Source: a virus
Lineage: Duplodnaviria; Caudoviricetes
Reading direction: 5' to 3' (one strand)
Virus record (IMG/VR): IMGVR_UViG_3300017702_000168
Coordinates: 1-37,446 of that record
DNA length: 37,446 nt
Positions 1 to 30,422 of this stretch are shown in pieces. Positions within the stretch are counted from its first letter, which is position 1; each line of letters starts with the position of its first letter. Made by a program: the position numbers and the translations under genes. The notes beneath the pieces were generated by a model. The model had not been told where the DNA came from, did not search any database, and was given only the letters and a program-made list of their open reading frames with translations.

Positions 1-123
1 CGCTCAATGAAGACCTGTCTTGCAGCTTTGATCCCTGCAATGTTTGCCTCAATCTGAGCGTCCTCAGCCTCCTGTCTTCTATCAGCCTCCAGCTTGCTCA
101 TGTAGGAATCATAGTCCTTTGCC
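1..123. repeat. Terminal direct repeat, left copy (circular-assembly overlap)
   Basis: 1-123 is identical to 37324-37446 (cgctcaatgaagacc...atagtcctttgcc). It lies inside a continuous ORF, so it indicates a circularised contig of about 37,323 bp. Confidence 0.97.
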
Positions 124-314
124 CTTTGTGGCCATGAGAACTTAGAACTCCATGCCTCCAGAACCTTCCTGTATCCATCCACCCTCCCCATCTCACTTGC
201 TGTGAGCTTGATGGTTCTGGTCTTCTTTGGGAGCTTGTAATAGACCTCAAAGGCTTCATATGATTTGAAGGTTTCACCCTCCATCATCTCCCATGATTTT
301 CCACTATCGCTCAT
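1..314 (-). CDS. terS: Terminase small subunit, 5' part (continues across the circular junction to 37092)
   Basis: Manual translation from ATG at 314 (GGAG upstream): MSDSGKSWEMMEGETFKSYEAFEVYYKLPKKTRTIKLTASEMGRVDGYRKVLEAWSSKFSWPQRAKDYDSYMSKLEAD..., in frame with ORF 37092..37424, about 181 aa in total. It has an HTH-like W..GET..YEAF..Y...W...W..RA..YD pattern and lies directly upstream of TerL. Confidence 0.8.
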   Translation of the reverse strand, partial: MSDSGKSWEMMEGETFKSYEAFEVYYKLPKKTRTIKLTASEMGRVDGYRKVLEAWSSKFSWPQRAKDYDSYMSKLEADRRQEAEDAQIEANIAGIKAARQVFIE

Positions 315-328
315 GATCATGTCTCCAT

Positions 329-356
329 AAAAAAGGGGAGAGCATAAGCCCTCCCC
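329..356 (-). terminator. Rho-independent terminator between the MTase-like gene and terS
   Basis: GC-rich stem (ggggagagc / gccctcccc) followed by a T-run on the minus strand, abutting the terS RBS. Confidence 0.65.
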
Positions 357-373
357 ATATCGGTTGTGATTGA

Positions 374-1117
374 TTAGATGTATTCATCCAGGCTGATCTG
401 TCCATCCTTGTAGGATTCCAGGTCAAGCCCTTTGGTTGCAGCTATGAGGGACTCAGCAAGCTCCAGGGCTTCATCCATCGAGTCCACATAGCCCATGTAT
501 CGTCTCTTGGCTGAGAGGACAGCACAGCCCATATCAGGGTGTGTGCAATGAGGCTCAAGGAAGACCTCTCCAGGGTATGAGCAAGCCCTGATCAGTTCCC
601 CCAGGACAGCCTTTGAGCTGTTGCTTGAAAGGACAACGTTGTGAGGCTCCATCCCAAAGCTCTCCTTTTCCTTGGAGATCCAGGTGGAGTTATCTGCTGG
701 ATGCCACACAGCAAGCTGTCTTGCGCTCCCTATAACAAAGGCATCACCCCATGTCTCATCATTGCCCATGAGGATCTCCTTGGTTTTCACCCAGATCCCA
801 TTCCTCACATGAGCATCCCCCAGGACATCCTGAATGTTCCCCACCTCATCAAGTCCACACATGAAGAACCCAAAGCCCTCACAGTGTTCTGAGAGGTCTC
901 CAATGATGCCTTGATTGACCAGACAAGACCCAGCAAGATCATCCTCACACCACATGATATGAGAGGGCTTGTAGCCCATGATCTCCTTTGGCTTGACCTT
1001 GTTGTAGTCGCCTACAATGATGGTCCATATATTGCTTGACGAATCGGTTATGATGTGAGCGTTTTTAATCTGTGTGATCACACACTCATCATGAACAATC
1101 TTGCTTAACTTCTTCAT
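374..1117 (-). CDS. Degenerate beta-class N6A/N4C DNA methyltransferase-like protein, probably catalytically inactive
   Basis: The C-terminus ELIRACSYPGEVFLEPHCTHPDMGCAVLSAKRRYMGY..EALELA follows the N6_N4_Mtase pattern LI...S.PGD.VLDPF.GSGTT..AA....R..IG.E. The N-terminal IIVGD resembles I..GD. The DPPY/SPPY and DPFxGSG motifs are both replaced. Confidence 0.65.
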   Translation of the reverse strand: MKKLSKIVHDECVITQIKNAHIITDSSSNIWTIIVGDYNKVKPKEIMGYKPSHIMWCEDDLAGSCLVNQGIIGDLSEHCEGFGFFMCGLDEVGNIQDVLGDAHVRNGIWVKTKEILMGNDETWGDAFVIGSARQLAVWHPADNSTWISKEKESFGMEPHNVVLSSNSSKAVLGELIRACSYPGEVFLEPHCTHPDMGCAVLSAKRRYMGYVDSMDEALELAESLIAATKGLDLESYKDGQISLDEYI

Positions 1118-1212
1118 TACATCTCCACTGTAATATTATTGCATGTAGGTAATATAGGAGAGATCACATGTGCGTGATCCCTCGCTATTACCAGATCTTT
1201 CCCAGTCTACAC

Positions 1213-1737
1213 TCAAGTCATCGTTGACACAAACTTCATCACACGAAACAGGTGTTCCTCATGTGTCAGTGGTTTGACTTTGACGAACACCCCAGCCTCA
1301 AGATCTGAGAATGGAGAGATGGATCTCTCACCCTCAGTGAGGGTGTTCAGGATGATCTTGTCTGTATCCATGCTCATGACCTTCCTGTCATCTTCCCAGA
1401 TACATCCACACCCCTTGATCTTTTGACCCCTGAGGACTTTCCCCCTTGGGAGTTCAACATTCCTCTTAGCAACCACATCCACCCCATTGAGAGCATCCAT
1501 GATGCCTCCAGCAAGGTTGTCAATGTCTCCCACCCACCTTCCATCATTGAAGACAAAGAGAAGCTCAAGGAGAACGTTCCCTGAGTATTTGTGAGTGATG
1601 TTTTGCTCAGCGATGAAAGCAACCTTTGTCTTCCACTGCTTCATGTTCTTTGGTGTCCTCATGGTCTTGTTTGCACCGCTGATAGGTCTGAGCTTTGCGA
1701 TTGACCGACCTGGAACGAAAAACGTTGTACTACTCAT
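1213..1737 (-). CDS. rusA: RusA-family Holliday junction resolvase
   Basis: Motifs VPGR.IAK.RP, DIDNLAGGIMDALNG and WEDDRKV match the RusA D.DNL.K...DAL.G / DD..V signature. Confidence 0.88.
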   Translation of the reverse strand: MSSTTFFVPGRSIAKLRPISGANKTMRTPKNMKQWKTKVAFIAEQNITHKYSGNVLLELLFVFNDGRWVGDIDNLAGGIMDALNGVDVVAKRNVELPRGKVLRGQKIKGCGCIWEDDRKVMSMDTDKIILNTLTEGERSISPFSDLEAGVFVKVKPLTHEEHLFRVMKFVSTMT

Positions 1738-2179
1738 GATCCTTCTCCACTGTTACACACTCCCCATCAGGGAGCTTGTTATGGTCTTTGGGCTGTCCCT
1801 CAACCTTGATGCTCCTGAGTCGCCCTATGCGCTCAGGATCTCCTATAATCCTTGTGAGGAGGATAACCCTCACCTGGACTGAAGTCTTGACTTTATCGCT
1901 CTCCTTGAGAATCGCGTCCATGTCTTTCTTACTCAATCCAGGGATTCCTCCTGTCTTCCTTTTGAATCCCCACTCCTTCATCCAGGCTTGAAGTTCATCC
2001 TTGAGAGTCCTCCTGAGCTTGGATGTAAACACCCCATATGGTTGATGCGCTCCCCACTCTTCAAAGAGTCTTACGCGCTCCTTGATGGCGAGGTGTGAAG
2101 CCACATCATACCCTGTGAATTGATGCCGTACCATCTTGACCTCCTGTGAGCGTCCCTGTTGCGTTGCTTTCTCTTCCAT
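1730..2179 (-). CDS. Hypothetical basic protein
   Basis: 149-aa ORF with GAAGGTAGG upstream and an 8-nt overlap with rusA; no recognisable motif. Confidence 0.75.
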   Translation of the reverse strand: MEEKATQQGRSQEVKMVRHQFTGYDVASHLAIKERVRLFEEWGAHQPYGVFTSKLRRTLKDELQAWMKEWGFKRKTGGIPGLSKKDMDAILKESDKVKTSVQVRVILLTRIIGDPERIGRLRSIKVEGQPKDHNKLPDGECVTVEKDHE

Positions 2180-2293
2180 TACTGCTGACCTACCTTCACC
2201 CCTTCAAGGGGCTTAGAATCCATTACAGACCCCTTCCTGAGCTTATTTATACCATTTCCCATTAAGGGGTTCTTTACTTTCATTGATTCATGG

Positions 2294-2830
2294 TCGTCTC
2301 AAATTCATTGTCTCAGACGATTTACCCTCACAGCCCTGGGAACTCTCCCCTCCCCCCCCTAAAGGGGGGAGAGGAGAGTCCCAGGGTGAGTGATGCGGTG
2401 AGACAACCAGTGTGAGACAATCGATGGACGGCCTAGAATGCGGGTGAGCGATTGTCTCACAAATTTGAGACAATGAATGGGTGAGACAATGACCTGTTTT
2501 TTGAACTTCCATAATGATTTCAACCACTTGTGATTGTCTCAAATCATTGTCTCACGTTTGAGACAATGAATTTCTGAGACAATGAATTGAGACAATGACC
2601 TGTTTTAGGGGTTGTTTCAAAAGTCGTGAGACAATCAATCAACCGCCTATCATGCGCATGAGACGACACCCTGAGACAATGAATCGACCCCTTGAGACAA
2701 CCCTTGAGACAATGAATCCCAAAACACCCCCATTGAGGGCATTGACTCAACCCCTTGAGACAATCGCTCAACGGCCTATCATGCGGTTGACTCACCATTG
2801 ACTCAATGCCTGAGACAACCCCTGAGACAA
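2294..2830. repeat. Iteron-like array of TGAGACAA octamers (putative replication origin)
   Basis: 18 exact copies at 2308r, 2399, 2413, 2452r, 2466, 2482, 2534r, 2547r, 2559, 2575, 2588, 2627, 2672, 2693, 2705, 2756, 2811 and 2823 (r = reverse), plus variants at 2294, 2612 and 2659. The array lies immediately downstream of the primase-helicase. Confidence 0.85.
2334..2386. other. 53-bp imperfect palindrome centred on CCCCCCT-AA-AGGGGGG
   Basis: ccctggg-aactctcc-cctcccccccct-aa-aggggggagaggagagt-cccaggg; lies inside the iteron region. Confidence 0.85.
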
Positions 2831-2874
2831 TGCTTTGACCCATGGGGAACCTCATCTGGGGCTGATGCGCGCTC

Positions 2875-5304
2875 TCACCCCTCATCATCAACCTCCTGGG
2901 TGAAGGATTTTGGGTTGCTTCCATCCAGATAATAGACACGTGATCCTTTTGATTTGCTGTCTACTTCTTCCCTTTCTGGTCCATCCTGATAGACCCAAAC
3001 CTCCCTGGATTCTACCTCCAGGATTGCTCCAGAATCGGAGTGCTTGAAATGAGTGGGGAGGACTGATGTGAAGTCCCAGACAGTCTCCTGATCATCCTTG
3101 GAGATGTCTTTACCCAACTGCATCCCCTCAACCACCATGAACCCATCTGAGTTGTGATGAGGCTTCTCCACATCATCAGGTAAGTCCCATCCATCAGTGA
3201 TCCTGATGTAGCCCTTGCTCATCAGCTCATTGATCTTTCGTGCAATGGATGAGCGGCTCCCCAGCCCCAGTGTGTTGCTGTAGGTCTCACAGAATGACCT
3301 GGAGGTGATGAGCCTCCTCTCCTCCCTTGCGAGTCTGTCCAGCTCCCTGAGGACCACACTGGACTGTCTGGAGGCTTCCAAGTCCCACCTTTGCCCAATG
3401 ACCTCACCAGCAATCCTCACCTCAGCATCAGCGCGCACAAAGACACCCTGATCACCTTCAAACTTGACCACCATGGGAGAGGGGGTCTCATCAATCCTCA
3501 CCTCAAAGAAGACCTTCCTTTCATGGGATTCCTCGCTGATCTTGCTGATCACCATCCCTGAGGAGTAGTATCCCCTCAATGCTCCAGCACCCCTGATGCA
3601 GTTGAATGGGTCATCCTCAAGCTCCCTCTTGGAGATCTTGGATGTGTGGTGGAGCATGATGATTGCAGCCTCAGGGTTCACCCTATCGCGCATAGCATCC
3701 ACCCTCTTGAGGAATTTGATCATCTCTTGGTTGTCATTCTCAGTGTTCCCACTGAAGACGTTCACAAGCGGATCAATGACGATGACATCAGGGAGTTCAC
3801 CCTCATCCCTCCAGAACCCCTCCAGGAGGTCCACAGCCTTGCTCACCCCTGTGTCATCCAGGGTGAGGTGGAACTTGTTTGTGATCTTGAAGTTGCTTCT
3901 AAACTGCTCCTTGTCCTGTGGACGTATGGGGAGGAGCTTGAGCCTCTTTTTGAGCACGCGCTTTGACATCTCCATGTTGAGATACGCTATCCTCCTGGGA
4001 GCTGGAACCTTCATCCCCAACCAGTCCCACCCCATTGCAAGGTGGAGACACATGTCCTGACACAGGAGGCTTTTCTGGGACTTGGGTGGACCAGCGATGA
4101 GGAGGAACTCACCTGGAGCCACAATTCCAGGCTCAAGATAATCATCAGGGAGGGGTGTTGGATCATCAATGAGATCCATCACGTCCAGGACTTCAGCCTC
4201 CTTGACATCCAGGAGAAGCTCAGCTCCCTCCAGCTCACCAAAGATGAAGCGCTGAGGATCAAGCCCTTGACGCTCCCTGGAGCGGTTGATGGACTCCACA
4301 ACGCTTGTGACAAACCTGAGCGCGTTAGTGTACTCATCCTTGCCCTTGTTCTCAGTGATGTCCTTGAACAGTGGTGGATGGTGTTTGGTGGAGTCATACT
4401 TGAGCACCTCAAAGAGTGTCCTCTCCAGGCTCTCTCTTCTCTCCAGGCAAGCACCCACAATCATCTTGAGGGAGTTGTTCCTCCCTCCAGCTCCAGTGAG
4501 TCCACCATGAGCCTCAGTGAGTGCATCCCAGTCTGATGGGGGAGCACCCCCTCCAGGAGCTTCAATCTCACCCTCCCACCCTGAGAAGAGATCCTCCTCA
4601 TAGATGTCCATGCTCTCCATCAAGTAGGCAATGGAGAACCTCTCACCATCGTTGCTCACAATGTCAACAGGACGCTTGTCATTCTCAATCTTGAGGTTGA
4701 GACTTCCAGGAACCCTCAGCACACGAGCAAGATCAAAGGTTGAGTCAAGGTGCCAACCTTTCATTTTCCATGCACGTTGAAAGTGAGCCTGAAAACGCTG
4801 GACAAAGCCCATCGCTTGTGTGCGTTGCCTCTCCCTCTCATGGTCCCCCTCAGGAGTCCCATCACTGGTGAACTCCCAGACCTCATCAAACAACCAATAA
4901 CAATGAAGACCTCCTCCACTGTGGATCACCACAGTAGGCTCAATGGGGAGGGCATCATCCAGCGCCTCCAGCGCCTCCTCAGTTGAGGATGGGAGCCTCT
5001 TTGATGCGTGGACACCTGTGGAGAGATCCACATCAATCCACACTCCAGGGATGAGCCTCACATCACTCTCACTCCCCCTCCCACTCTTGATCCCCTTCTC
5101 CATCAATCCTATGGAGTAATAGATGTTCTGGTCTCGCCACACCTGGAGCTGTTTCTCCAGGGATGTCCTGAATGATCCATCCTCAAGTCCTTCAATGGGG
5201 ATGAACTTTGTACGTCTTGAAGGGAGGGCAAACAAAGCAAGCTCACCCTCCTCAGCGTGCTCATATATCTCTTGAAAGAACTGTATAGCCTTGTCTGTAT
5301 TCAT
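2875..5304 (-). CDS. Replicase: RepB/AEP-type primase + PriCT-like domain + AAA_25 (RepA-like SF4) helicase
   Basis: Primase motifs WIDVD, HSGGGLHCYW and DLARVLRVPGSLN; PriCT-like GRNNSL; Walker A GPPKSQKS, YLNMEM, Walker B VIVIDP, HHTSK and RGAGAL. Confidence 0.9.
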   Translation of the reverse strand: MNTDKAIQFFQEIYEHAEEGELALFALPSRRTKFIPIEGLEDGSFRTSLEKQLQVWRDQNIYYSIGLMEKGIKSGRGSESDVRLIPGVWIDVDLSTGVHASKRLPSSTEEALEALDDALPIEPTVVIHSGGGLHCYWLFDEVWEFTSDGTPEGDHERERQRTQAMGFVQRFQAHFQRAWKMKGWHLDSTFDLARVLRVPGSLNLKIENDKRPVDIVSNDGERFSIAYLMESMDIYEEDLFSGWEGEIEAPGGGAPPSDWDALTEAHGGLTGAGGRNNSLKMIVGACLERRESLERTLFEVLKYDSTKHHPPLFKDITENKGKDEYTNALRFVTSVVESINRSRERQGLDPQRFIFGELEGAELLLDVKEAEVLDVMDLIDDPTPLPDDYLEPGIVAPGEFLLIAGPPKSQKSLLCQDMCLHLAMGWDWLGMKVPAPRRIAYLNMEMSKRVLKKRLKLLPIRPQDKEQFRSNFKITNKFHLTLDDTGVSKAVDLLEGFWRDEGELPDVIVIDPLVNVFSGNTENDNQEMIKFLKRVDAMRDRVNPEAAIIMLHHTSKISKRELEDDPFNCIRGAGALRGYYSSGMVISKISEESHERKVFFEVRIDETPSPMVVKFEGDQGVFVRADAEVRIAGEVIGQRWDLEASRQSSVVLRELDRLAREERRLITSRSFCETYSNTLGLGSRSSIARKINELMSKGYIRITDGWDLPDDVEKPHHNSDGFMVVEGMQLGKDISKDDQETVWDFTSVLPTHFKHSDSGAILEVESREVWVYQDGPEREEVDSKSKGSRVYYLDGSNPKSFTQEVDDEG

Positions 5305-5666
5305 TCTTCACCCTTGGGATCACACACACCCTGTGAGTCACCATCAGTCTCCAGGGGGAGACCGCGAAAGAACCAAGGACACAAGTTGATCCTGGAGACC
5401 CTCTCATCAATACCATTGATTGCAGCGTGCTGGTTGACAGCCTTCTCAATGTCCATAGCCCTCTTGCCATCAACCCCCACCTTCATCCAGTGATAGAAGA
5501 TGGAGCGGCTCACCCCCAGGAGGGATGCAAAGGATGTCACCCCTCCTACTATACGTGCGCAAGACTCCAGCTCTCTCCTGATGAGCTTCTTCTCCTCATC
5601 TGTGATCTCTTCAGTCTCTTCCATGAGTCCCTGTATAGGATGGTCCAATTTATTTTCCATGATCAT
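5301..5666 (-). CDS. Cro/YdaS-like HTH transcriptional regulator
   Basis: GGVTSFASLLGVSRSIFYHW...RAMDIEKAV...VSRINLCP matches the YdaS/Cro pattern GG..A.A..LGVS..AV..W...RA..IE......V....L.P. It is the first gene of the leftward operon. Confidence 0.8.
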   Translation of the reverse strand: MIMENKLDHPIQGLMEETEEITDEEKKLIRRELESCARIVGGVTSFASLLGVSRSIFYHWMKVGVDGKRAMDIEKAVNQHAAINGIDERVSRINLCPWFFRGLPLETDGDSQGVCDPKGEE

Positions 5667-5717
5667 CTCCTGTGTTCATGCGGTTTTGAGCGGTTTTGCT
5701 GTTCACTGTCGAATATT

Positions 5718-5746
5718 TTTATACATTTTCCCTTGCAATGTGTCAA
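5718..5746 (-). promoter_or_regulatory. Sigma70-like leftward promoter
   Basis: Minus strand TTGACA (5746-5741), 17-nt spacer, TATAAA (5723-5718), upstream of the cro-like gene. Confidence 0.7.
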
Positions 5747-5769
5747 ATGATATTGCACAGTGTTTGACA
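5734..5769. promoter_or_regulatory. Interleaved inverted repeats (candidate operators) in the divergent control region
   Basis: TGTCAAA(5741-5747)/TTTGACA(5763-5769) and TGCAAT(5734-5739)/ATTGCA(5752-5757) overlap the leftward -35. Confidence 0.4.
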
Positions 5770-5828
5770 TCAGGGGGGAAACAGCCCCACGAAACATCCC
5801 AAGAGGGACAACAGCCAAGAGGCACACA

Positions 5829-7010
5829 GTGAACACCATCAAGATCAAATTCAGTGAAGCTCAGACAGCCCTCCTTGATTCAGCTCATGGGGCTGAGTTC
5901 TACAACAGGGGAGGCGAGCGCCTCACTGTTGAGTTCACCCAGGAAGCTCTCCTTGAGCTTCAGGAGACTGTTGAGGGGATCACTGAGGCTGAGCTTGCTG
6001 AGGAAGCTGAGATGACCATGGACACCCATCAGGAAGTGTCAGACAACATGATCAAGTTTGCCACACGAGCAAAGATGAACTCCCTCAAGGCCATCAAAAA
6101 CAAGGTCAACAACGGTCTCAACAGCTTCCCTGAGGAAGTCGCTGAGGAAGTTGCTGAAGAGATCCAGACACCACAAACCACAAAGGAAGCATCCACCATG
6201 AACAAGCGAACAATCAACTCAGTTGCCAAGCGATTCAATGACCTCCAGACACTCACACTCACGAAGGATGACATTGCACCATCAACCCTCAGGGGATACC
6301 TGAAGAAGGATCTCTTCAATGTCACTGATGATGGACTTGTCCTCCCCACACCTGAGCTGATGCGCTCTCTTGTGGAGGCTGATGTCCTCACCTTCGCTCA
6401 TGGTTGGGTTGATGAGAGTGTCACCCCTGAGGAAGCTCCTGAAGCTCCTGAAGCTCCTGAGGAAGTTGTTGAGGAGACACCTGTGGTGATCACTCCAGGT
6501 GAGCAAGCCTTCAACACCCTGAAGGAAGATGGACGCTTCTCTCACTTCAAATCCTGGGAAGACTATCAGGAGCGAGGAACCAAAGCAGATCAGTTCATCC
6601 TCTCATCAATGCTCCTGGACGCTCCTGAGGTTGAGCCTTTGGTCATTGAAACAACTGAAGTCCTGGAGGCTCCTGTGGTCTCAATGAAGATCACTGGGAA
6701 GGTTGTGAAGTCAAAGAAGGTCAAGGCAAAGAAACCAAAGAAGGCTAAAGAGCCAAAGAAGCCAAGGGTTTACAAGACCACTGATGACTACACATCATGT
6801 GAATGTGGGGATAAGGACTGTGATGAGAAGGCATCCAACCAGGATGAGATTGAAGACCTCTTTGGGTGGAGGAACATCATGAAGGGTCCAGGTGGAGCAA
6901 GGGTCAAGGTTCAAGTCCCTCAGTCCAACTGTAGAGCATGTCGCAAGCGTAAGAATGCCAAGTATGCCAAAAAGAAGAAGGCTCTCAAGCAAGCTGAAGC
7001 AACAGCCTGA
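5829..7010 (+). CDS. Hypothetical early protein: acidic modules, Lys-rich linker, C-terminal Cys cluster (putative Zn-binding)
   Basis: Likely GTG start at 5829 after AAGAGG (the track starts it at 5760). Contains PEEVAEEVAEE and APEAPEAPE repeats, KKVKAKKPKKAKEPKK, and CECGDKDC...FGWR...PQSNCRACR. Confidence 0.8.
   Translation: MNTIKIKFSEAQTALLDSAHGAEFYNRGGERLTVEFTQEALLELQETVEGITEAELAEEAEMTMDTHQEVSDNMIKFATRAKMNSLKAIKNKVNNGLNSFPEEVAEEVAEEIQTPQTTKEASTMNKRTINSVAKRFNDLQTLTLTKDDIAPSTLRGYLKKDLFNVTDDGLVLPTPELMRSLVEADVLTFAHGWVDESVTPEEAPEAPEAPEEVVEETPVVITPGEQAFNTLKEDGRFSHFKSWEDYQERGTKADQFILSSMLLDAPEVEPLVIETTEVLEAPVVSMKITGKVVKSKKVKAKKPKKAKEPKKPRVYKTTDDYTSCECGDKDCDEKASNQDEIEDLFGWRNIMKGPGGARVKVQVPQSNCRACRKRKNAKYAKKKKALKQAEATA
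6432..6458 (+). repeat. In-frame 9-bp tandem repeat (GAAGCTCCT)x3 encoding EAP-EAP-EAP
   Basis: Read directly from the sequence. Confidence 0.9.
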
Positions 7011-7106
7011 GAAGTCAAGGATCATAGAGATAAACAAACACAGATGAGGGACTGTACATCCCTCACTACTCTCAACCCCATGAGGGGTCAAAACTAAGGA
7101 AGTATC

Positions 7107-8942: not shown

Positions 8943-9154
8943 TTATCAATGGAGAGGTTTACATCTTCGTTATGGAGATTGACTTACAGAACTATTATGG
9001 AGGCGTCAGACTACTGAGAAAACCTGGAGAGTCTGGATACTATATGGACCTTGAGAACTGGAATGGTTACGACGTAATAAGCATATCTCAAGAGGCTGGA
9101 GATCAGTTGATTGAGGATTCAAAATCACCACTTTACACAATCGGAAAGGGATAA
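8930..9154 (+). CDS. Small acidic hypothetical protein
   Basis: 74 aa with AGGAG RBS; overlaps the upstream stop and ends 6 nt before the Sak4-like gene. Confidence 0.65.
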   Translation: MDELIINGEVYIFVMEIDLQNYYGGVRLLRKPGESGYYMDLENWNGYDVISISQEAGDQLIEDSKSPLYTIGKG

Positions 9155-9160
9155 AAGATC

Positions 9161-22836: not shown

Positions 22837-22845
22837 GTTTTAGCC

Positions 22846-23415
22846 TCATTGAAAGATCAATTTGTAAAGTTGTGAGGACTCCTTCTCAGCCTTTGCCTTT
22901 GCCTTCTTCGTGCTCTTCCTGGAGCCTTTGCCCTTTGGCTTCTTCGTTCCATGCTTGACTGATGAGTCAGGAGCCTCAAGGGTTGTGGTCTTTCGCTCAG
23001 CAACCCTGAACTCCTGGAGCTGGACTGAGACCTTGAGGGCAATCCCAGACTGTGCATCCTCAAGCGTCCCCACTGATGTGATGAGCATCCTCTCATAGAC
23101 CTTCAGACCGCTCACCACAGTTAGCCCTTGCCTTGCTTTGGCCAAGCCTACCAGTGTGGACCACTGCTCCCTTGCTCTCCCCACAGCGGCTCTCTCAGCC
23201 CCATTCACCACATCACTCCACATCACCTCCATGGTGAGCTGATCGGGCATGACAACAGCATGATCTGGGATGTCCGCTCCCTCCTCCAGGGGGTTTGTCA
23301 AAACCTGGATGGTTGTGGTGTGACCCTCACTGATGGAGGCGTCAACCACAAGATCACCCAGCTTGCTTCCTTGAGTCCTCTTGACAAGGATTGCTGTCTC
23401 TTCTGATTCTGCCAT
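22846..23415 (-). CDS. Dit-like / tube-initiator baseplate protein
   Basis: DAS.SE.H....V.TNP.E.GA.I.DH....P..L and VV.GLKVYE.M.I.S; follows the tape measure gene. Confidence 0.8.
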   Translation of the reverse strand: MAESEETAILVKRTQGSKLGDLVVDASISEGHTTTIQVLTNPLEEGADIPDHAVVMPDQLTMEVMWSDVVNGAERAAVGRAREQWSTLVGLAKARQGLTVVSGLKVYERMLITSVGTLEDAQSGIALKVSVQLQEFRVAERKTTTLEAPDSSVKHGTKKPKGKGSRKSTKKAKAKAEKESSQLYKLIFQ

Positions 23416-23427
23416 GATCGCGCCTCC

Positions 23428-25143
23428 TCAGTACACATAAGCCGTTGTAAAGTTTTCCTTAATCTCTCTTGCTTGCTTGTCCATCTCAGCCTTCTGATGC
23501 TTGCTGATCCGCTTTGCTAGATCATCAGTGGACTCTCCAGGTTTCTGGACAACAGTGATGGGGCTACCTGTGTAGCTGGATCTCACCTCAGGTGTCCTCC
23601 TGTTTGATGCCCCATTGGACGCATCCCTGGAGACTGTTGAGGATGGTCCAATCTTGGAGGCTCCTGTGTTGAAAAGGTCAACCTTTGCCTTGAGGTCTTT
23701 CACAAGGCTCAGCTCAATCCCAGGGATTGCATCAGCACCCTCCAGGATTGTCCCCAGCATCTTGCTGAACCTCCCGGTGAGGTCCAGGATCACACCCATT
23801 GCATCAGCATGGATGTTCTTCCAGGCTCCTCTTGCTTTGGCTTCCATGTTGTTCCACCCATCAACCAGACCCCAGATTGCATCCCAGCCCTCTTGCTTGA
23901 GCTTTGGCCACATCTTAAACAGCCACAGGAAGAACTCCTCAGCAACAACACCAGCCTCATTCCAGACATCCCTGATGAAGTAGATAGCCTTGCCAAGCTC
24001 AGGGAACTTCTTCACAAGCTCCCCTATCGCTGAGTTTTGTCCCTTGAAGAACTTGTCAAAGTCCTCAATGAGGTAGGCAATCAAAGCGAGCAACGCACCT
24101 ATTGCAATGGGGATCAGGAGCATCTTTGCTTGTGCAAGTAGAGCACTCATTCCAAGCAATCTATATGCAGCAATCAGACCCCTGATCATCTTGATGAATG
24201 ATACAATCCCAGCAAGAGCCTGATAGGATATGAACGCGGTCATGATGAATTGAACAACCCTCATGACTCGCTCAAGTCCACCCAGCCAAGAGATCAGGCT
24301 TTGGATGAGAGACACCACTGTCTTGATCCCCCTACCCATGAACTTCAGTGCTTCCACTGTGAGCATGATCCCTTGCTTTATTCTGAGCTTCAGGAGTTCC
24401 TTGCTCTCCTTCGTCCAGGTGAGCGTTGCCTTTGCAATGTCCAGGACTTCAGGGATCAGCTCGATTGCAACAGCATCCTTCACAGCCTTCACTGTGAACT
24501 TGATTTTGTCGATGGTGTCATTGAGTTCCTCAGCCTTCTGAGCGGTCTCCTGGGAGAGGACAAGACCCAGCTCCCTGGACTCCTGTCTCATCTTCCTGAT
24601 TGCCTCAGAACCCCCATCCAGGAGGGACGCCATCTTGATCCCCTGTTCCCCCAGGAGCTTCATCCTGAGCTGTGCTCTTAACCCAGGGTCATTGACCCCC
24701 TTGAGTCCATCAGACACAGCCTCCAGCTTCTTATCAATGGGGAGCTTGACGAACTTGTCAGCATCAATGCCCATTGCTCTCAGCGCAAGCCTGAGACCCT
24801 TGTTCCCTCCAGCCGCTTCAATGCTGTTCTTCGTGAGGTCTTTGAGGATGTCATTGAGCTGTTCATTGGATGCACCACTGAGACCTGCTGCATACTGAAG
24901 TTCAAGGAGTTCCTGAGCAGTGAGTCCAATGTTTCGCGCCGCTTTGGTGACTGTATCGATCCCCTCAGCGGTCGTCTTGACGAACTTGTACACACCTACA
25001 GCAGCCCCAGTAGACACTGCTGTGATCACCTTGAGGGATGTCTTGAGTTTATCAACTCCACCCTCAGCCTCTTTGAGAGGCTTTGAGTCAATGTCAAACC
25101 CCCACTTTGTGATCAGCTCCCTGATAACTTGCTTCACAGCCAT
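23428..25143 (-). CDS. Tape measure protein (about 571 aa)
   Basis: VIRELITKWGF.ID start, LELQYAA..SG, helical A/L/K-rich composition, central hydrophobic segments; follows the chaperone pair. Confidence 0.88.
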   Translation of the reverse strand: MAVKQVIRELITKWGFDIDSKPLKEAEGGVDKLKTSLKVITAVSTGAAVGVYKFVKTTAEGIDTVTKAARNIGLTAQELLELQYAAGLSGASNEQLNDILKDLTKNSIEAAGGNKGLRLALRAMGIDADKFVKLPIDKKLEAVSDGLKGVNDPGLRAQLRMKLLGEQGIKMASLLDGGSEAIRKMRQESRELGLVLSQETAQKAEELNDTIDKIKFTVKAVKDAVAIELIPEVLDIAKATLTWTKESKELLKLRIKQGIMLTVEALKFMGRGIKTVVSLIQSLISWLGGLERVMRVVQFIMTAFISYQALAGIVSFIKMIRGLIAAYRLLGMSALLAQAKMLLIPIAIGALLALIAYLIEDFDKFFKGQNSAIGELVKKFPELGKAIYFIRDVWNEAGVVAEEFFLWLFKMWPKLKQEGWDAIWGLVDGWNNMEAKARGAWKNIHADAMGVILDLTGRFSKMLGTILEGADAIPGIELSLVKDLKAKVDLFNTGASKIGPSSTVSRDASNGASNRRTPEVRSSYTGSPITVVQKPGESTDDLAKRISKHQKAEMDKQAREIKENFTTAYVY

Positions 25144-25147
25144 GGCA

Positions 25148-25354
25148 CTAGCTCCAGTTGTTTCCCTCTTGGCGCTCCCTTTGCTCTTCAGCAATCTTAG
25201 CGCTCAGGTCATCAATCTCTTGTTTTATGTCAAGGGCTGAGTGTGCATCAATCAATGTGGAGAGGGTGTGAATTTCCATGACCTCAGTGTACGTTGTGAT
25301 GCCTGCAATGATGGGTCTCCACACCCACCAATTCAGCCCGCGATCTTTTATCAT
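25148..25354 (-). CDS. Tail assembly chaperone, second frame (gpT-like; probably reached by a -1 frameshift)
   Basis: NWWVWRPI.AG..TY.E......L..L.DAH.ALD. The same frame is open upstream to the slippery site at about 25590. Confidence 0.75.
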   Translation of the reverse strand: MIKDRGLNWWVWRPIIAGITTYTEVMEIHTLSTLIDAHSALDIKQEIDDLSAKIAEEQRERQEGNNWS

Positions 25355-25365
25355 CTGAGTGATCC

Positions 25366-26115
25366 TCAGCTCCCCTCTTCTTTTAGTTGAGCTTGAATCT
25401 CCTCCATCTCCTCCTGGGAGATCCCCAGACTCACCTCCTCCAGCGCTGAGGCTGGTGAAGCCTCCTCTTGTGTCGTCAGCTCCAGGGGAGAAGGGTTGCT
25501 CTCTTCCTTCCAGATCTCCTCCAGCTTGCCCTTGAGACCCTTGACTGATCTCAGCTTCTCCATGAGCGCGTTGAAGGATCTTGTAAAAAAATCCTGATAG
25601 TGAAACCTCAGAGTGAAGATGATCACTTGCATCATCCCAAACTCATTGAGCTTGAAGTCCCTGTCAGCATCCATCTTGACCCAGCGGGGAGCACCCTGAG
25701 GGGATGACACCACAACATCAGTACAGCAAAGGATGTCATTGATCATGACCTCTACACCAGCGTCATCAACACGCTTGAAGAGACTGCTCACGGCGCGCTC
25801 AATACCAGCACCCTCAAGGGCTTCAGCTTGCTCCAGGGAGATCCCCTCATCAGAACCCATGAGCGCTGAGACAGCGGCTCCAAACGGTCCACCCACAATC
25901 CTCCCCAGCCTGATGAGGAGCTGTGTGGAGTAGATGGGGTTGAATGCTCTCACCCTCACTCTCATGTCCCCTGTGGGGAACGTGAAGACCCTGACTTCCC
26001 AGGGCTTGCGAGGCTCCTTTGTTGGCTCCTCAATGGGAGCCTCAGTGGGTTCATCTGAGAGGACGCTCTCTTCAATCTTTGGATCTTGCTCACTTGTCTT
26101 CTTTTTGTCTGTCAT
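25366..26115 (-). CDS. Tail assembly chaperone (gpG-like)
   Basis: Lies between the tube and tape measure genes; contains Y.DFF encoded by GGATTTTTTTA. Confidence 0.78.
   Translation of the reverse strand: MTDKKKTSEQDPKIEESVLSDEPTEAPIEEPTKEPRKPWEVRVFTFPTGDMRVRVRAFNPIYSTQLLIRLGRIVGGPFGAAVSALMGSDEGISLEQAEALEGAGIERAVSSLFKRVDDAGVEVMINDILCCTDVVVSSPQGAPRWVKMDADRDFKLNEFGMMQVIIFTLRFHYQDFFTRSFNALMEKLRSVKGLKGKLEEIWKEESNPSPLELTTQEEASPASALEEVSLGISQEEMEEIQAQLKEEGS
25584..25594 (-). other. Programmed -1 frameshift slippery site G GAT TTT TTT A
   Basis: T7 run in the X XXY YYZ register. The -1 frame is stop-free from here to 25148 and is closed by a TGA about 17 codons upstream. Confidence 0.78.
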
Positions 26116-26144
26116 GTTCTTTTCCTTTCCACTGGGGAGGGGGT

Positions 26145-26180
26145 AAAAAAAGAGAGCCTCAAGGAACTCCTGAGGCTCTC
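26145..26180 (-). terminator. Rho-independent terminator after the tail tube gene
   Basis: gagagcctca / tgaggctctc stem followed by T7 on the minus strand. Confidence 0.85.
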
Positions 26181-26186
26181 AAGTGA

Positions 26187-26606
26187 TCAGGTGTTTGAAC
26201 CCACGAAGTGATCAAGGACAGGGCAAAGGAAAGCCCATTGCACATTTCCAGTCTCAGCCTCATAGGACTTGTCACTCACCTTCTGGAGCCTGGAAGCCTC
26301 AGCAAAGTGAAGGCTTGTTCCGTTGGCGTCCTCCACTGCAATGTGGGTCTGACCCCCACCCAGCTTCTCCTGAGCGAGTGCAACACCCATGAAATAATCA
26401 TTGGATGGGCTTGAACCCAGAAGGGTGAATGTGACCAGTCCAGACTTATCACTTGAGAGGTTGAAACACCAGTCTCCCTGAAGACCAATGGTGAGTGTTG
26501 CAGCCTCAGATCTTCGGGCTGCATTGATCATTGTTCCTGGAGCAAATCCAGTGACGATGTGAGCACCATGAATAGCGCTCACTTCACCCGGTGCATAACT
26601 TGGCAT
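26187..26606 (-). CDS. Tail tube protein (DUF3277-like)
   Basis: Y.P.EV....G....TGFA.GT.I, G..G, DKSG.VT.TL..SSPSN.Y, D.NG and W; follows the sheath gene. Confidence 0.85.
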   Translation of the reverse strand: MPSYAPGEVSAIHGAHIVTGFAPGTMINAARRSEAATLTIGLQGDWCFNLSSDKSGLVTFTLLGSSPSNDYFMGVALAQEKLGGGQTHIAVEDANGTSLHFAEASRLQKVSDKSYEAETGNVQWAFLCPVLDHFVGSNT

Positions 26607-26664
26607 GATTGAACTCCTTTAGTTCATTGTTTTTGTATAGATCATTTGAACACAGTGAGGCTGA

Positions 26665-28026
26665 TCAGGCTATCAGCTTCCCACTGTATGATGTCTTGTT
26701 GATTGCTCCAGCAAGGTAGAACTCAAAGGTGATTGTGGGGAGGGAGCGTGTTGCTCTCTCAGCGCTTGTCATCGTTCGCACATCAACAGCATTGATGATA
26801 GGTTCAGGCTGATCAGTGAATAGACCAGTGCTCAAGCCCTTTGCAAAGCGCTCCCTGAGAATCCCCAGAAAGATTGCTTTACCAGCGTTTGTCATGGGGA
26901 TCTTTCCTCCACCCTTTGAAGCCTCAACCTTTGCAGCAAAGGAAGCCTCCTCAAGTCTTGTGGTTGTCCAGTCAATCCCCAGGAGGACATCCATCCACTC
27001 ACCAGATGAGGCTTTGCAGTCCTCCCCTGTGACTGTGATCCCACCTGCATTGTCAGCAAAGAAACCATTCTTTGCCTCAAGGAAAGCACGCTCACTGGAT
27101 GTGATGTTTGCTGGGGTGATCCCAGGCATAGGAACGTTGTTGTAAACTGTGGACTGCTCATCAGCACTCACGCTGAGTCTGTTCCCATGAAGAGCAACGT
27201 TAGGGAACTCCCAAAAGCGATCAGTCCAGAAGATCCCCCCATCCCTGGAGAGAGTCTGTGCAGCGCTCAAGACATCATCAGTTGCACTCGTGATGCAGTC
27301 AGCATCACTGGAGAGACCCATGGGGAGCTTGCGTCTTGTCTGGCACCATGTGAGGAGTTCCAGGACATCAGCCTTTGTGGGGTTGAGGAGAGCCACACCA
27401 TAGAACCCTGGGTTCTCCAGGAGGCAAGCATCCAGCGCATCTGAGACGGTCTCAGCGCTTGCTGTGTTTGCGGTGGTGTTCACGATGGACTGAAGAGCAT
27501 CCACAGTGGATGTGAATCCGATGCCTGGAAAGTCACTGGTCACAGTGTAGGCATCAGCCCCACTGTCAGCAGTGGTCACAGGGAGGGGTGAGTCATCAAT
27601 TGCAGCCCTGATCAGATCACGAATATCACCCAGGGAGGGTGTCCCTGTGGGAGCTGTGACCTTGACCTCAAAGGCAACACCTGTGGGGAACTTGTACCCA
27701 TAGGTGTAGATAGCCTCAGCGGTTGCTGTGTCCACAGTGATTGTGTCCACTTGGGCAATGCCCACAGTACGTCTCCCCACCATTGCAGCCTGAGGGGTGA
27801 GATCCATCCCAAGGAGGTTTGACATTGCGATGTATTCAGCATCCTTTGCAGTGAACCCAGCATCCTTCATACCCTGGAGGATCTCAGCCCCAGAACCAGC
27901 ATACTCTTGAGTTCTCTCCAGGAACCTTGAATGCTCTCCCAGGATCAGGACTTTTCCAAAGCCAGCAGTTGAGAGGTTGAGAGTTCCAGAAATGATCTGG
28001 ACATTTTCACGATCAGTGATCCCCAT
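26665..28026 (-). CDS. Contractile tail sheath protein (DUF3383-like)
   Basis: GFG..LILG, SGEWMD...G.DW, KIP.T..G and F...LAGAI. Confidence 0.9.
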   Translation of the reverse strand: MGITDRENVQIISGTLNLSTAGFGKVLILGEHSRFLERTQEYAGSGAEILQGMKDAGFTAKDAEYIAMSNLLGMDLTPQAAMVGRRTVGIAQVDTITVDTATAEAIYTYGYKFPTGVAFEVKVTAPTGTPSLGDIRDLIRAAIDDSPLPVTTADSGADAYTVTSDFPGIGFTSTVDALQSIVNTTANTASAETVSDALDACLLENPGFYGVALLNPTKADVLELLTWCQTRRKLPMGLSSDADCITSATDDVLSAAQTLSRDGGIFWTDRFWEFPNVALHGNRLSVSADEQSTVYNNVPMPGITPANITSSERAFLEAKNGFFADNAGGITVTGEDCKASSGEWMDVLLGIDWTTTRLEEASFAAKVEASKGGGKIPMTNAGKAIFLGILRERFAKGLSTGLFTDQPEPIINAVDVRTMTSAERATRSLPTITFEFYLAGAINKTSYSGKLIA

Positions 28027-28041
28027 GAGGGTCTCCTTTGT

Positions 28042-28581
28042 TTAAGTTAAGTCAATGTCCAGGCTTACACTGGATCTGTTTAAATCATCACTCACCACAT
28101 CACCCTCAAAGGTAACATGTTCAATGACTCCAGGGCTTGTTCTGTATTCAACAGAATAGGAGAACTGGAGCGTGAGGGTTGCCCTCTTTTCGTTCCTTGT
28201 TGTGAGGAAGGTTGTAGAGTCGATTGAACCCAGCTCACGCTGATAGGACACACCAGCGTTGAAGAGTGTGGGCTTGTGGTACTCCTGGAGGGAGTTCCTG
28301 ATTGCATCAACATCCTCATCTGAGGTCTCACCATACAGGGAGAGGGTAACTGTAGCAATCCTCTCCCCCTTGTGGACATACTCCTCATCATCCATGACCT
28401 TTGCGTCCTGATCCCCCACCCTCCTCACAGGGGTGACTCTCACTGAGCACCATGGAGCCTCAGGAGATGGAGTCCCTGTGGAGTCTCCCGTCCTTGGCTG
28501 GTCATGATCAATCACTGTGTGTGATGGGAGGATCTCCTCAATGAAGTCCCCAATTGCATTCTTTGCTGTTGTGAAGTTCAT
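28042..28581 (-). CDS. Neck / tail terminator protein
   Basis: Position before the sheath gene; VI..DQ, G.R.ATV.LS.YG and E.RA.L.L.F.Y. Confidence 0.75.
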   Translation of the reverse strand: MNFTTAKNAIGDFIEEILPSHTVIDHDQPRTGDSTGTPSPEAPWCSVRVTPVRRVGDQDAKVMDDEEYVHKGERIATVTLSLYGETSDEDVDAIRNSLQEYHKPTLFNAGVSYQRELGSIDSTTFLTTRNEKRATLTLQFSYSVEYRTSPGVIEHVTFEGDVVSDDLNRSSVSLDIDLT

Positions 28582-28928
28582 TCATCCACCCTGATTGCAA
28601 CCACCTCCCAGTGGGGTGATGTGTGTTCAATTGGCTCACAGGTCATGACCTCATAGTCCCTCCCATTGATGGTGATCACATCTGCTGGAGTCTTGAGGGT
28701 CTTGTCCAGGGTCAAGAGTTCAGTGTTTGTAATGATGAGCTTTGGGTCTTTCGTGCGCTGAGCATCGCTCAGAGAGACTGTGCTCTCAGATGACGCTGGT
28801 TCAGGATAGCCCTGGATAGTGAAGACGGTCTCAGCCCCAGGGACAAACTTCCTATTCACATACGTTCCAGCGGCTCTCCTTTTCACTGAGAGTGATCTTG
28901 CTCCCAGGATGCTTCCTCTTGATCTCAT
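28578..28928 (-). CDS. Head-closure protein
   Basis: R...G.YV...FV.G, L.D..R, T.TEL and AD.I...G..YEV. Confidence 0.72.
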   Translation of the reverse strand: MRSRGSILGARSLSVKRRAAGTYVNRKFVPGAETVFTIQGYPEPASSESTVSLSDAQRTKDPKLIITNTELLTLDKTLKTPADVITINGRDYEVMTCEPIEHTSPHWEVVAIRVDE

Positions 28929-29395
28929 GGTTTCTCCTTCATGCGCACCTCAAAGGATACAGCATTGCGCGCTGTTCCTGTGTCAATGAGTGGGTTGTCA
29001 GCACCCTTCTGATCAATGGTTGACTCAGCGTTAGCTGGATCATTGAAGTCAGTGATTGCTTTCTGAAGCTCAGCCTTGAACTTGATCCCCACCTTCGTGA
29101 GTGCACCCTCAACTGTGGAGCGTCCCTGGATGATTGCCTCCAGCTCCCTCTTGAGCATTGCCTCAACCTCAGGTCTGACAGCATCAGTTGTCTCACCCAT
29201 GACTGGACGCTCAGGGATGTCAATGGTCCCCACCTCATTGAGCCACATGTAGTCAGCAACACTCAGCTCAGACTGATCTCCCCCTTCAGGGTTGTCCCCA
29301 GCAAAGAACCCCACAACAACATGGGGAGCTTTCTTCATGAGATCCATCTGTCCCATGATGCGCTTGTATCCTTTGTCCTTGTCGATAGTATCCAC
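28925..29395 (-). CDS. Tail-completion / virion morphogenesis protein (HK97 gp10-like)
   Basis: VVVG, NEVGT..IPERP, PANA.STI..KG...PLIDTG..RN.V; GTG start. Confidence 0.8.
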   Translation of the reverse strand: MDTIDKDKGYKRIMGQMDLMKKAPHVVVGFFAGDNPEGGDQSELSVADYMWLNEVGTIDIPERPVMGETTDAVRPEVEAMLKRELEAIIQGRSTVEGALTKVGIKFKAELQKAITDFNDPANAESTIDQKGADNPLIDTGTARNAVSFEVRMKEKP

Positions 29396-29430
29396 TGAGA
29401 ACTCCTGTGGTGGTCCCTGAGGGGTTTGAA

Positions 29431-29808
29431 CTACAGTCCAGGTATCTTGCGATATCTACACCAGTAACGATCCTCTACAGCCTTGAGAGCCTCCTCAGTG
29501 GAGCGGTATGTCTCAGCGATTCGTGAGGAGCGCTTTGAGCTGATTGATGGGTCTGCTCTCACTGCATCCTGGATAGCAAAGACGAACACACCCAGCTTGA
29601 CGCTGGAGGGGATGGACTCATCAACACCAAACCCATCAACAAAGGGGTTGTTGATAAACAGATCAGCTTGCTCCATTGCTCCCTCAAGAGAGAGCTGGAG
29701 CATGAAGTCATCTGAGGTGTCCAAGGGGTCAATCTTTGCGTACTTCTTAAACTCAGTGAGCAAGGCTGCAATGTCTGGATCTGGCAATCTGTCTTGTATC
29801 GCTCCCAT
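29431..29808 (-). CDS. Head-tail connector (HK97 gp6-like adaptor)
   Basis: L.EFK.Y.KID....DD..L...L..A..QAD.F.N, IP..VK.GV and terminal YR..PGL. Confidence 0.8.
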   Translation of the reverse strand: MGAIQDRLPDPDIAALLTEFKKYAKIDPLDTSDDFMLQLSLEGAMEQADLFINNPFVDGFGVDESIPSSVKLGVFVFAIQDAVRADPSISSKRSSRIAETYRSTEEALKAVEDRYWCRYRKIPGL

Positions 29809-29875
29809 GGGAGGCTCCTTGTTTTGAGTCCCTCTCCTGGGACTGGTTCAACTCAATGGACACAGGGGGTGTGGA

Positions 29876-30328
29876 TCACTCCTCCTCACCCAGTCCAAGC
29901 TCAGCATCAACCTGGACATCACCAGCATCAATCTTGCCAGTGAGGACAGCCTGAGACTCTTCAACCCACAGCTCAAGAGCAATGGTGTTCTCTTCCTTGG
30001 TTGGGTAGGTGGTCTCACCTTCAGCCTGGAGAGCATACACCTTCTTCAGTGCGGCTCGAATGGCGTTGCCATTGCCACCCTCAAGGGCTGCATTGGCTTC
30101 CTCAAGCAAGGTCATGGATGTGGCGATTGCTCCCCCCTGAGGGTTGATGGGATCAACATTCTTTGCAGACTCCACATCCTCAATGGGGTCTCCAAGATAA
30201 CCAGTGCCATAGACGCGCTCGATTGCTGCAACGGCATGATTGCCCAGCCACTTTGTTTTACCCTGAAGCATCAGGGAATCAGACCACTTGAAATTCTGGA
30301 GAATGGGATAGAGCTTCTTTGACATCAT
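29876..30328 (-). CDS. Hypothetical protein downstream of the major capsid gene
   Basis: 150-aa ORF with acidic C-terminus in a position typical of head accessory genes. Confidence 0.7.
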   Translation of the reverse strand: MMSKKLYPILQNFKWSDSLMLQGKTKWLGNHAVAAIERVYGTGYLGDPIEDVESAKNVDPINPQGGAIATSMTLLEEANAALEGGNGNAIRAALKKVYALQAEGETTYPTKEENTIALELWVEESQAVLTGKIDAGDVQVDAELGLGEEE

Positions 30329-30353
30329 CGTCTCACTTTGTCGGGATCACGTT

Positions 30354-30390
30354 AAAATAAAAACCCCTCTCCTCATGGAGAGGTGAGGGG
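30354..30390 (-). terminator. Rho-independent terminator after the major capsid gene
   Basis: cccctc-t-cctc / gagg-t-gagggg stem followed by TTTTTATTTT on the minus strand. Confidence 0.75.
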
Positions 30391-30422
30391 TCTGATAGAT
30401 TCTGAGTCTGATCAGGAGTTGA

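What the first reader, a model, noticed from the sequence alone, without database searches (positions are those of the whole stretch)
1..30400. Strong CpG depletion in a phage of roughly 50% GC
Seen: I count 9 CG dinucleotides in 1-1020, where base composition predicts around 60. CCG/CGG are especially scarce, Arg is mostly AGA/AGG, and TG/CA-containing words (TGAG, CTCA) are abundant, while GATC and CCWGG are common. Established: CpG loss with TpG/CpA gain is the signature of 5mC deamination, and phages also purge restriction sites. Inference: the host has a CpG-type C5 methyltransferase, or a defence recognising CG-containing or methyl-CG sites, that has reshaped the whole genome.
Basis: partly seen in the sequence, partly recalled or inferred. 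Interest (0 to 1): 0.7.

Follow-up and report, generated by a model that had tools for sequence, protein, structure and literature searches.

The report
Marine phage purges CG by selection
This complete 37-kb uncultured marine phage genome carries only a quarter of the expected CG steps and lacks many restriction-enzyme sites, and the pattern likely comes from natural selection by DNA-reading host defences rather than from methylation damage.

Summary
Confirmed and genome-wide: CpG O/E is 0.26 in a complete circular 37,323-bp myophage, at all codon positions, between genes and on both strands. At 478 Arg positions shared with a relative, CGG:AGG is 5:199, a C-to-A route that deamination cannot take. 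Surviving CpGs are far more conserved than hypermutation allows, and selection models fit better. The penalty acts per strand (C>T>A>G before CG) and relaxes in the capsid gene. It sits among other purged words: 38 of 64 six-base palindromes are absent, and some asymmetric words are purged in only one of two sister phages. The host is unproven. Gene and word-usage clues point to Myxococcota (Bradymonadia), whose sampled DNA never falls below CpG 0.69. The phage's own methyltransferase homologue has lost its catalytic motifs. Best reading: weak cumulative selection from many host restriction-type specificities, agent unidentified. The scan reported similar CG purges earlier in crAss-like phages. 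This is a new lineage with a different context rule.

The parts
1..37323 (.). Complete circular myovirus-type genome; CpG O/E 0.26, TpA 0.33, TpG/CpA 1.45; 38 of 64 six-base palindromes absent
   Evidence: circular contig in run X1, which may be the source of this DNA
37324..37446 (.). 123-nt assembly overlap identical to 1-123; the putative small terminase ORF reads across this junction
374..1117 (-). Beta-class N6/N4 DNA methyltransferase homologue with degenerate catalytic motif (DPPY-type replaced by DSSS) and SAM-binding motif (DPxxGSGT-type replaced by EPHCTHPD); predicted inactive
   Evidence: ESM Atlas features 0.94 and TM up to 0.72; phmmer relatives with intact motifs; the A3 profile hits DpnA-like and CcrM structures; the G001 orthologue is also degenerate at 37% identity
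2300..2850 (.). Array of TGAGACAAT direct and inverted repeats downstream of the primase gene; likely replication origin
   Evidence: role inferred
2875..5304 (-). Primase/helicase-like protein; no DNA polymerase gene was recognised among the 47 ORFs scanned, so replication likely uses host polymerase
8930..9154 (+). Variable slot holding the least ameliorated ORF (CG 0.57, TA 0.78); G001 carries a small phage C5 methyltransferase gene here instead
9161..13729 (+). Sak4-like annealase, SSB, Cas4-like exonuclease and SF2 helicase; the helicase subfamily gives the host clue
30423..32030 (-). Major capsid protein gene, where the CG penalty relaxes: O/E 0.65, and 27 of 28 Arg codons are CGN

Best explanation
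The phage keeps CG steps at a quarter of expectation on both strands, and this is most likely purifying selection by host DNA-reading defences, not methyl-cytosine decay. Shown: the loss is at DNA level, strand-symmetric, reaches CG by transversions as well as transitions, acts per strand with strength C>T>A>G for the base before CG, and coexists with complete loss of many 5-6-base words, some purged in only one of two sister phages. Inferred: the hosts, probably Myxococcota of the class Bradymonadia, carry a large and changing set of restriction-type specificities, likely including methyl-cytosine-dependent type IV enzymes of the YCGR kind. Every CG would slightly raise the chance of a cut, which averages to a weak per-site cost (fitted scaled selection about -2 for CG) that translational selection can outweigh in the capsid gene. 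The phage would rely on sequence purging because its own methyltransferase homologue is predicted to be catalytically dead. The TpA deficit is probably in large part host-like background.
For: (1) Conserved Arg: window CGG:AGG 5:199 and CGA:AGA 31:127 at 478 shared positions; AGR share is 68% against 5-21% in five Bradymonadia genomes. C-to-T at these codons changes the amino acid, so deamination cannot produce AGR (genetic code). (2) Turnover versus G001: in the low-divergence third, C before G differs in 0.53 of cases, T before A in 0.49 and T before T in 0.48. Of fourfold-site Cs before G, 16 are shared among 35 and 51 (0.37), against 0.04 predicted for the roughly 60-fold hypermutation needed, or 0.19 with 15% invariant sites. 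(3) All three routes into CG are suppressed (T>C 0.08, A>C 0.05, G>C 0.07, against 0.2-0.8 in other contexts). (4) Likelihood fits on 3,200 fourfold sites: selection on CG+TA AIC 13,700; deamination only 14,196-14,288; three-context deamination with invariant sites 13,840; the CpG multiplier added to selection models is below 1. (5) 14 palindromes expected 4-42 times are absent, and CAGAG is 6 against 154. GAGCCC occurs 75 times in aligned G001 DNA and differs in the window by changes at all six positions. (6) A four-factor per-strand model reproduces the ten NCGN classes with r=0.983. (7) The capsid genes of both phages use CGY Arg.
Against: No host is proven and no enzyme is identified; no spacer match was found in the genomes searched. 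Only two close genomes were available, with no outgroup, and stationarity was assumed. The best deamination-plus-TA-selection model with invariant sites is only about 30 AIC units worse (13,637 against 13,607), and all models are far from the saturated fit (lnL -6,555). At fourfold sites the pyrimidine share before G (0.566) equals that before T (0.562), which taken alone looks like a pure C-to-T swap. Adding CG palindromes to per-strand NCG terms gains almost nothing in the window (lnL -7916.7 to -7912.8), which fits one short-motif reader better than a sum of palindromic systems. 629 CGs survive, so no efficient CG cutter is involved. Rusinov 2018 (section read) found avoidance mainly for orthodox type II sites and values near 1 for type IV sites.
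Confidence: 0.55

Rival explanations
1. One unknown host factor reads a three-base word (Y-C-G) on each strand and restricts or signals in proportion to its number.
For: Per-strand multiplicativity r=0.983; conditional weights CCG -1.65, TCG -1.0, ACG -0.07, GCG +0.04, with the same order in G001 and no extra effect of palindromes in the window; most NCGN classes are 0.25-0.5 of the G020 value.
Against: Other short words carry similar weights (CTGC -2.0, GCC -1.7, CCAA -1.1). G005 lost CG with another rule (TCG -1.0, GCG -0.6, CCGG spared). No candidate protein was found.
Confidence: 0.15
2. A host CpG-type C5 methyltransferase methylates the phage and deamination converts CG to TG/CA.
For: Fourfold sites before G: C 75, T 1000, with an unchanged pyrimidine share; strand-symmetric. 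Junction loss of 788 CG is matched by a gain of 813 TG. G001 carries a C5 methyltransferase gene.
Against: The Arg transversion route, CpG conservation and model fits. The G001 gene has foreign composition and is absent from the window. Candidate host G020 has CpG about 0.84, and the two of its three C5 enzymes that I searched hit HaeIII/DNMT1 or Dnmt2 structures, with no entry named as a bacterial CpG methyltransferase.
Confidence: 0.1
3. The phage simply mirrors an unsampled CG-poor host (amelioration), and the cause lies in the host genome's own history.
For: A, C and T contexts match G020 (C/Y 0.84, 0.42, 0.68 against 0.85, 0.52, 0.76). G020 shares avoidance of CCGG, CTGCAG, GGATCC, GGTACC, AGGCCT and CAGCTG. 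Forni 2024 (passage) states that phage CpG content tends to resemble the host's.
Against: The lowest CpG among 78 Bradymonadia pieces of 5 kb or more is 0.69. The G context differs sharply (0.39 against 0.06). The sister phages differ in purged words.
Confidence: 0.12
4. Self-avoidance: a phage-encoded nuclease or DNA-binding effector prefers CG and attacks the CG-rich host chromosome, so the phage removes its own targets.
For: The trait is phage-specific and shared by the sister pair. Two large early proteins have no family (5760-7010, 7107-8942).
Against: No nuclease or deaminase fold was found for 7107-8942 (low-confidence model). It does not explain the purged restriction sites.
Confidence: 0.05
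5. Physical DNA properties (bendability, heat adaptation) favour CA/TG over CG and TA.
For: CA/TG is the first word chosen in all three CG-poor phages (z 44-50). Forni 2024 (abstract) links CpG loss to thermophily and bendability.
Against: IVYWREL share is 0.382, mesophilic by a recalled formula. The runs are marine. Capsid relatives G006 and L020 have CpG 1.1-1.2.
Confidence: 0.03

Closest known systems
Restriction-site avoidance in non-temperate dsDNA phages (Rusinov et al. 2018, PMC6286503; abstract and section 13 read)
   Same: Complete elimination of 6-bp palindromes that are classical type II sites (enzyme names recalled: SacI, BamHI, PvuII, HindIII, PstI, NsiI, StuI).
   Different: Here avoidance extends to asymmetric 4-6-base words and down to a per-strand 2-3-base CG word. 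The paper found little avoidance outside orthodox type II sites, with 7.1% of type II sites eliminated.
CpG loss with a bacterial CpG methyltransferase (M.MpeI of Mycoplasma penetrans; seen only as cited in PMC11282364 passages)
   Same: CpG deficit with TpG/CpA excess.
   Different: No CpG hypermutability between sister genomes, a transversion route at Arg codons, and 51% GC.
Type IV modification-dependent restriction of YCGR (McrA; the site is named in PMC6286503 section 13, its assignment to McrA is recalled)
   Same: CCGG, CCGA and TCGA are among the rarest CG contexts (0.03, 0.07, 0.23).
   Different: Half-sites are penalised multiplicatively and RCGY is also below expectation (0.34-0.55). 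No such enzyme was linked to a host.
CG-purged crAss-like phages noted earlier in this scan (e1-5798529, e1-5999840, e1-5977746; unchecked AI notes)
   Same: Genome-wide, strand-wise CG purge read as selection by an unknown agent.
   Different: This is an unrelated 37-kb myophage at 51% GC; CCG is the most depleted context and GCG the least, whereas those notes report CCGG spared.
Beta-class amino-methyltransferases (DpnA-like 5hfj/5hek, CcrM 6pbd; PF01555)
   Same: ORF 374-1117 has this predicted fold and motif order.
   Different: The catalytic and SAM-binding motifs are replaced in both sister phages.

Membership tests
Restriction-site avoidance in phages | Palindromic type II sites strongly under-represented after compositional control | tested here: met
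   38 of 64 absent against 11.7 expected; 14 absent with expectation 4-42
Restriction-site avoidance in phages | Sites lost by changes at any position (selection on the whole word) | tested here: met
   GAGCCC, CTGC, GTCA and CTTC differ at all positions, by transitions and transversions
Restriction-site avoidance in phages | Avoided words match systems of the known host | not testable with these tools
   Host unproven; no REBASE access; G020 avoids several of the same words
Restriction-site avoidance in phages | Non-temperate lifestyle | tested here: inconclusive
   No integrase among 47 ORFs, but one repressor-like HTH and a possible origin array
5mC-deamination CpG decay | CpG deficit with TpG/CpA excess on both strands | tested here: met
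5mC-deamination CpG decay | CpG sites hypermutable relative to other sites | tested here: not met
   caveat: two genomes, no outgroup
5mC-deamination CpG decay | Loss confined to transitions | tested here: not met
   CGR:AGR is 36:326 at conserved Arg
5mC-deamination CpG decay | CpG C5 methyltransferase in phage or host; methylated virion DNA | tested here: inconclusive
   None in the window; 2 of 3 G020 C5 enzymes searched, no named bacterial CpG-enzyme hit; methylome not testable
Type IV YCGR restriction target | Penalty specific to the full YCGR site | tested here: not met
   No palindrome term beyond per-strand YCG in the window (CCGG +0.15, TCGA +0.09); G001 shows an extra CCGG term (-3.1)
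Beta-class N6/N4 methyltransferase (ORF 374-1117) | Fold and motif order | tested here: met
   own AlphaFold model low confidence, pLDDT 49.7
Beta-class N6/N4 methyltransferase (ORF 374-1117) | Intact DPPY-type and SAM-binding motifs | tested here: not met
   PF01555 score 13.1 against cut-off 26.7

The most novel reading that the evidence does not exclude
Predatory Myxococcota carry an undescribed innate-immune reader of the short word Y-C-G on each DNA strand, a bacterial counterpart of CG sensing in animals. It has driven independent CG purges in at least two branches of this phage group, while the phage keeps a dead methyltransferase as a decoy against host modification-restriction complexes.
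Probability: 0.15. Interest if true: 0.85.

Novelty: new variant of a known kind. Interest (0 to 1): 0.5.

Why it matters
Site avoidance is known for 4-6-base type II sites, and phage CpG content is usually thought to follow the host. Here a phage falls far below any sampled candidate host and the data favour selection on a two-to-three-base word. That points to host defences with very short or very many specificities in a little-studied group of marine predatory bacteria, for which my searches found no phage or restriction study. The purged-word list is a ready prediction of the host's methylome and restriction repertoire.

Tried and rejected
Host codon usage as the cause: rejected (junction and intergenic loss; the capsid gene prefers CGY). 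A picocyanobacterial host from TGATCA abundance (PMC4390886 passages): not supported, 55 against 61 expected. Cultured relatives: none close; best TerL 37-38%, sheath 28-29%, portal 36%. Spacer-like matches: none convincing in 48, 113 and 31 Bradymonadia genomes, each searched with half of the phage genome; the two best 30-33-nt hits lie in non-repeat DNA. TerL was found in 1 of 5 candidate genomes and not in G020 or G189. The Cas4-like protein and the A3 methyltransferase profile found 0 of 113 at strict cut-offs. Population variants: one C>T at 17819, not in a CpG, in contigs of three runs; uninformative. Selection models did not move because of an optimiser fault and were refitted. A lone CG weight is not identifiable in the conditional model (collinear with GC and CA), so only relative NCG weights are used. 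The idea that CA-containing sites are protected by phage methylation fails: CAGCTG, ATGCAT and CTGCAG are absent. CRISPR PAM avoidance (recalled idea) is not supported for CC/GG (O/E 1.07). ORF 7107-8942 has one homologue and no fold. A weak PADLOC methyltransferase hit to ORF 13804-14409 (E 0.004) was set aside as a likely chance hit on a membrane or lysis-type protein. The careful capsid tree did not finish; the quick tree is used.
Full report
What the window is. Positions 1-123 repeat at 37324-37446 and a contig in run X1 closes the circle, so this is a complete 37,323-bp genome. Pfam and PHROGs give an HK97-type head, a contractile tail and baseplate, a primase/helicase, Sak4, SSB, a Cas4-like nuclease, an SF2 helicase and RusA. 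No DNA polymerase, integrase or recognisable methyltransferase appears among the 47 ORFs scanned, and no tRNA. Three marine metagenome runs hold it, one possibly its source. Cultured phages are distant. One close relative exists, G001, about 79% identical in DNA over the longest match.

The observation. CpG O/E is 0.26 overall and below 0.65 in every kilobase; TpA is 0.33 and TpG/CpA 1.45. With protein and codon usage held fixed, junction CG is 280 against 1,068 (z -41), and intergenic DNA gives 0.33. Sense and antisense views of synonymous sites agree. Among 248 related loci of 1.5 kb or more the median CpG O/E is 1.07. Those below 0.45 are this phage, G001, G005 and four AT-rich loci.

It is one part of a wider word purge. 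38 of 64 six-base palindromes are absent where 11.7 absences are expected, including GAGCTC (expected 42), GGATCC (32), CAGCTG (29) and AAGCTT (20.5). Asymmetric words are purged too: CAGAG 6 against 154 and CAAGAA 0 against 31. The sisters differ: GAGCCC 0 against 95, ACCAGG 1 against 24 and GCGC 84 against 201, while CTGC and GTCA are rarer in G001. Homologous sites differ at every position of the word and by all kinds of change, as selection on a whole word predicts. GATC and TGATCA are kept. 39 of 41 genomes in the family of G020 have a PF01555 match, most of them one conserved enzyme whose best structure hit is CcrM; its site was not determined.

Mutation or selection. For deamination: before G, fourfold sites hold A 473, C 75, G 350, T 1000, and the pyrimidine share is the same as before T. 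Four results stand against it. First, at 478 Arg positions shared with G001 the window has CGG 5, AGG 199, CGA 31 and AGA 127. CGR to AGR is a transversion, and C-to-T there is non-synonymous. Five Bradymonadia genomes use AGR for 5-21% of Arg, and the capsid genes of both phages use CGN (27 of 28 and 23 of 25; Fisher p 2.5e-14 for the window), so AGR is not the likely translational optimum. Second, CpG sites are not unusually labile: context-stratified turnover is 1.37 before G against 1.01-1.34 elsewhere. Shared Cs before G are 0.37, against 0.04-0.19 simulated for the roughly 60-fold rate that deamination would need; more invariant sites would narrow that gap. Third, all routes into CG are low (reversibility assumed). 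Fourth, selection models beat deamination models and an added CpG multiplier is below 1, though the closest mixed model is only about 30 AIC worse and all fit imperfectly. The apparent T-for-C swap also dissolves if the background resembles G020. There T is already favoured before G (pyrimidine share 0.68, C/Y 0.39); removing C by selection gives about 0.58 by my arithmetic, observed 0.56, whereas deamination would leave 0.68. This rests on G020 as a proxy.

Shape of the penalty. A model with one factor per strand for the base 5' of CG (G 2.04, A 1.38, T 0.69, C 0.33) reproduces the ten NCGN classes with r=0.983. Conditional fits give the same order in G001 and little gain from palindromes in the window. 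Forward selection picks CA/TG first in window, G001 and G005, then lineage-specific short words. G005 shares the architecture and CpG 0.36 but spares CCGG. In a quick capsid tree it groups with CG-normal G006 and L020 (SH-aLRT 98), apart from the window and G001, so CG loss probably arose twice. The tree is a short search with many open forks.

Host. Circumstantial only. The long-type capsid protein occurs in 2 of 48 Bradymonadales genomes. The helicase subfamily is in 5 of 401 Myxococcota genomes and in 0 of 251, 0 of 201 and 0 of 201 genomes from three other phyla, with only 3-7 candidates scored per genome. One of the three best Atlas clusters for ORF 374-1117 is mostly Myxococcota. Trinucleotide residuals correlate best with G020 (0.63-0.76 for six pieces; best of 186 other loci 0.65, 95th percentile 0.37), and G020 avoids several of the same palindromes. 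G020 and G189 have no TerL match, and no spacer was found. The lowest CpG among 78 Bradymonadia pieces is 0.69, so the phage is far below any sampled candidate. Low TpA is common in these genomes (0.18-0.71), though the phage's TA weight is stronger than G020's (-1.9 against -0.7).

Methyltransferase genes. ORF 374-1117, missed by Pfam, is a beta-class amino-methyltransferase homologue by Atlas features and structure and by phmmer relatives that keep DPPY/F and DPxxGSGT motifs. The window and G001 copies have replaced both motifs yet keep open frames at 37% identity, so a non-catalytic role is inferred, not shown. G001 also has a small phage C5 methyltransferase gene (phrog_757) with foreign composition in a slot where the window has an unrelated ORF. 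It is likely recent and not the long-term cause.

Literature. PMC6286503: abstract and section 13. PMC12707154: passages. PMC11282364: abstract, passages and section 13. PMC4390886: passages. PMC7460792: listing only. A search for CpG depletion with bacteriophage, methyltransferase and deamination gave 0 papers; Bradymonadales with phage and restriction-modification gave 0; searches listed no study of this phenomenon in such a phage. Most subscription papers are outside this library. Enzyme names for the sites are recalled.

Verdict. A real and extreme feature, best read as restriction-type site avoidance pushed down to very short words in a new phage lineage, with the agent unidentified. New variant of a known kind; interest 0.5.

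Noticed in passing
window 374-1117 (-); G001 L013:10875-11657 (-): Predicted dead beta-class DNA methyltransferase just upstream of the terminase genes, kept open but fast-diverging (37% against mostly 60-90% for other genes); possible decoy or DNA-binding protein.
   Followed up: partly
L012:72-678 and L013:19015-19206 (G001): Small phage C5 methyltransferase gene; the two end copies of the record differ in the length of a G run (one in frame, one not) and in a two-base hairpin loop. Phase variation or assembly error.
   Followed up: partly
window 2300-2850: Dense TGAGACAAT direct and inverted repeats, likely an origin; a related region exists in G001.
   Followed up: no
window 30423-32030: Major capsid protein of 535 aa, longer than the usual 400-aa HK97 relatives, apparently by an internal insertion; shared by a group of uncultured phages and two Bradymonadales genomes.
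   Followed up: partly
window 5760-7010 and 7107-8942: Two large orphan early proteins; the first ends in a cysteine-rich basic domain, the second has one homologue only (49%).
   Followed up: partly
L457 (G002:C9) and most genomes: A conserved CcrM/DpnA-like methyltransferase across the family of G020; site unknown.
   Followed up: partly
G005 (L259, L260): Second CG-poor phage of the same architecture (CpG 0.36, TpA 0.28) with a different context rule, CCGG and GGCC kept.
   Followed up: partly
G020 (L381, L382, L453-L456) and G189 (L437, L438): Two Bradymonadia genomes with unusually low CpG for the class (0.84 and 0.67-0.69); G020 has nearly lost CCGG (46 against 269) and CTGCAG (2 against 60).
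   Followed up: partly
L422 (G020:C122): A C5 methyltransferase gene tail-to-tail with an endonuclease III-like DNA glycosylase gene.
   Followed up: no
G006 L261:9438-12367, 17829-19304: A 57-kb capsid relative carries WGR-vWA and MoxR genes and a B12-binding radical SAM gene.
   Followed up: no
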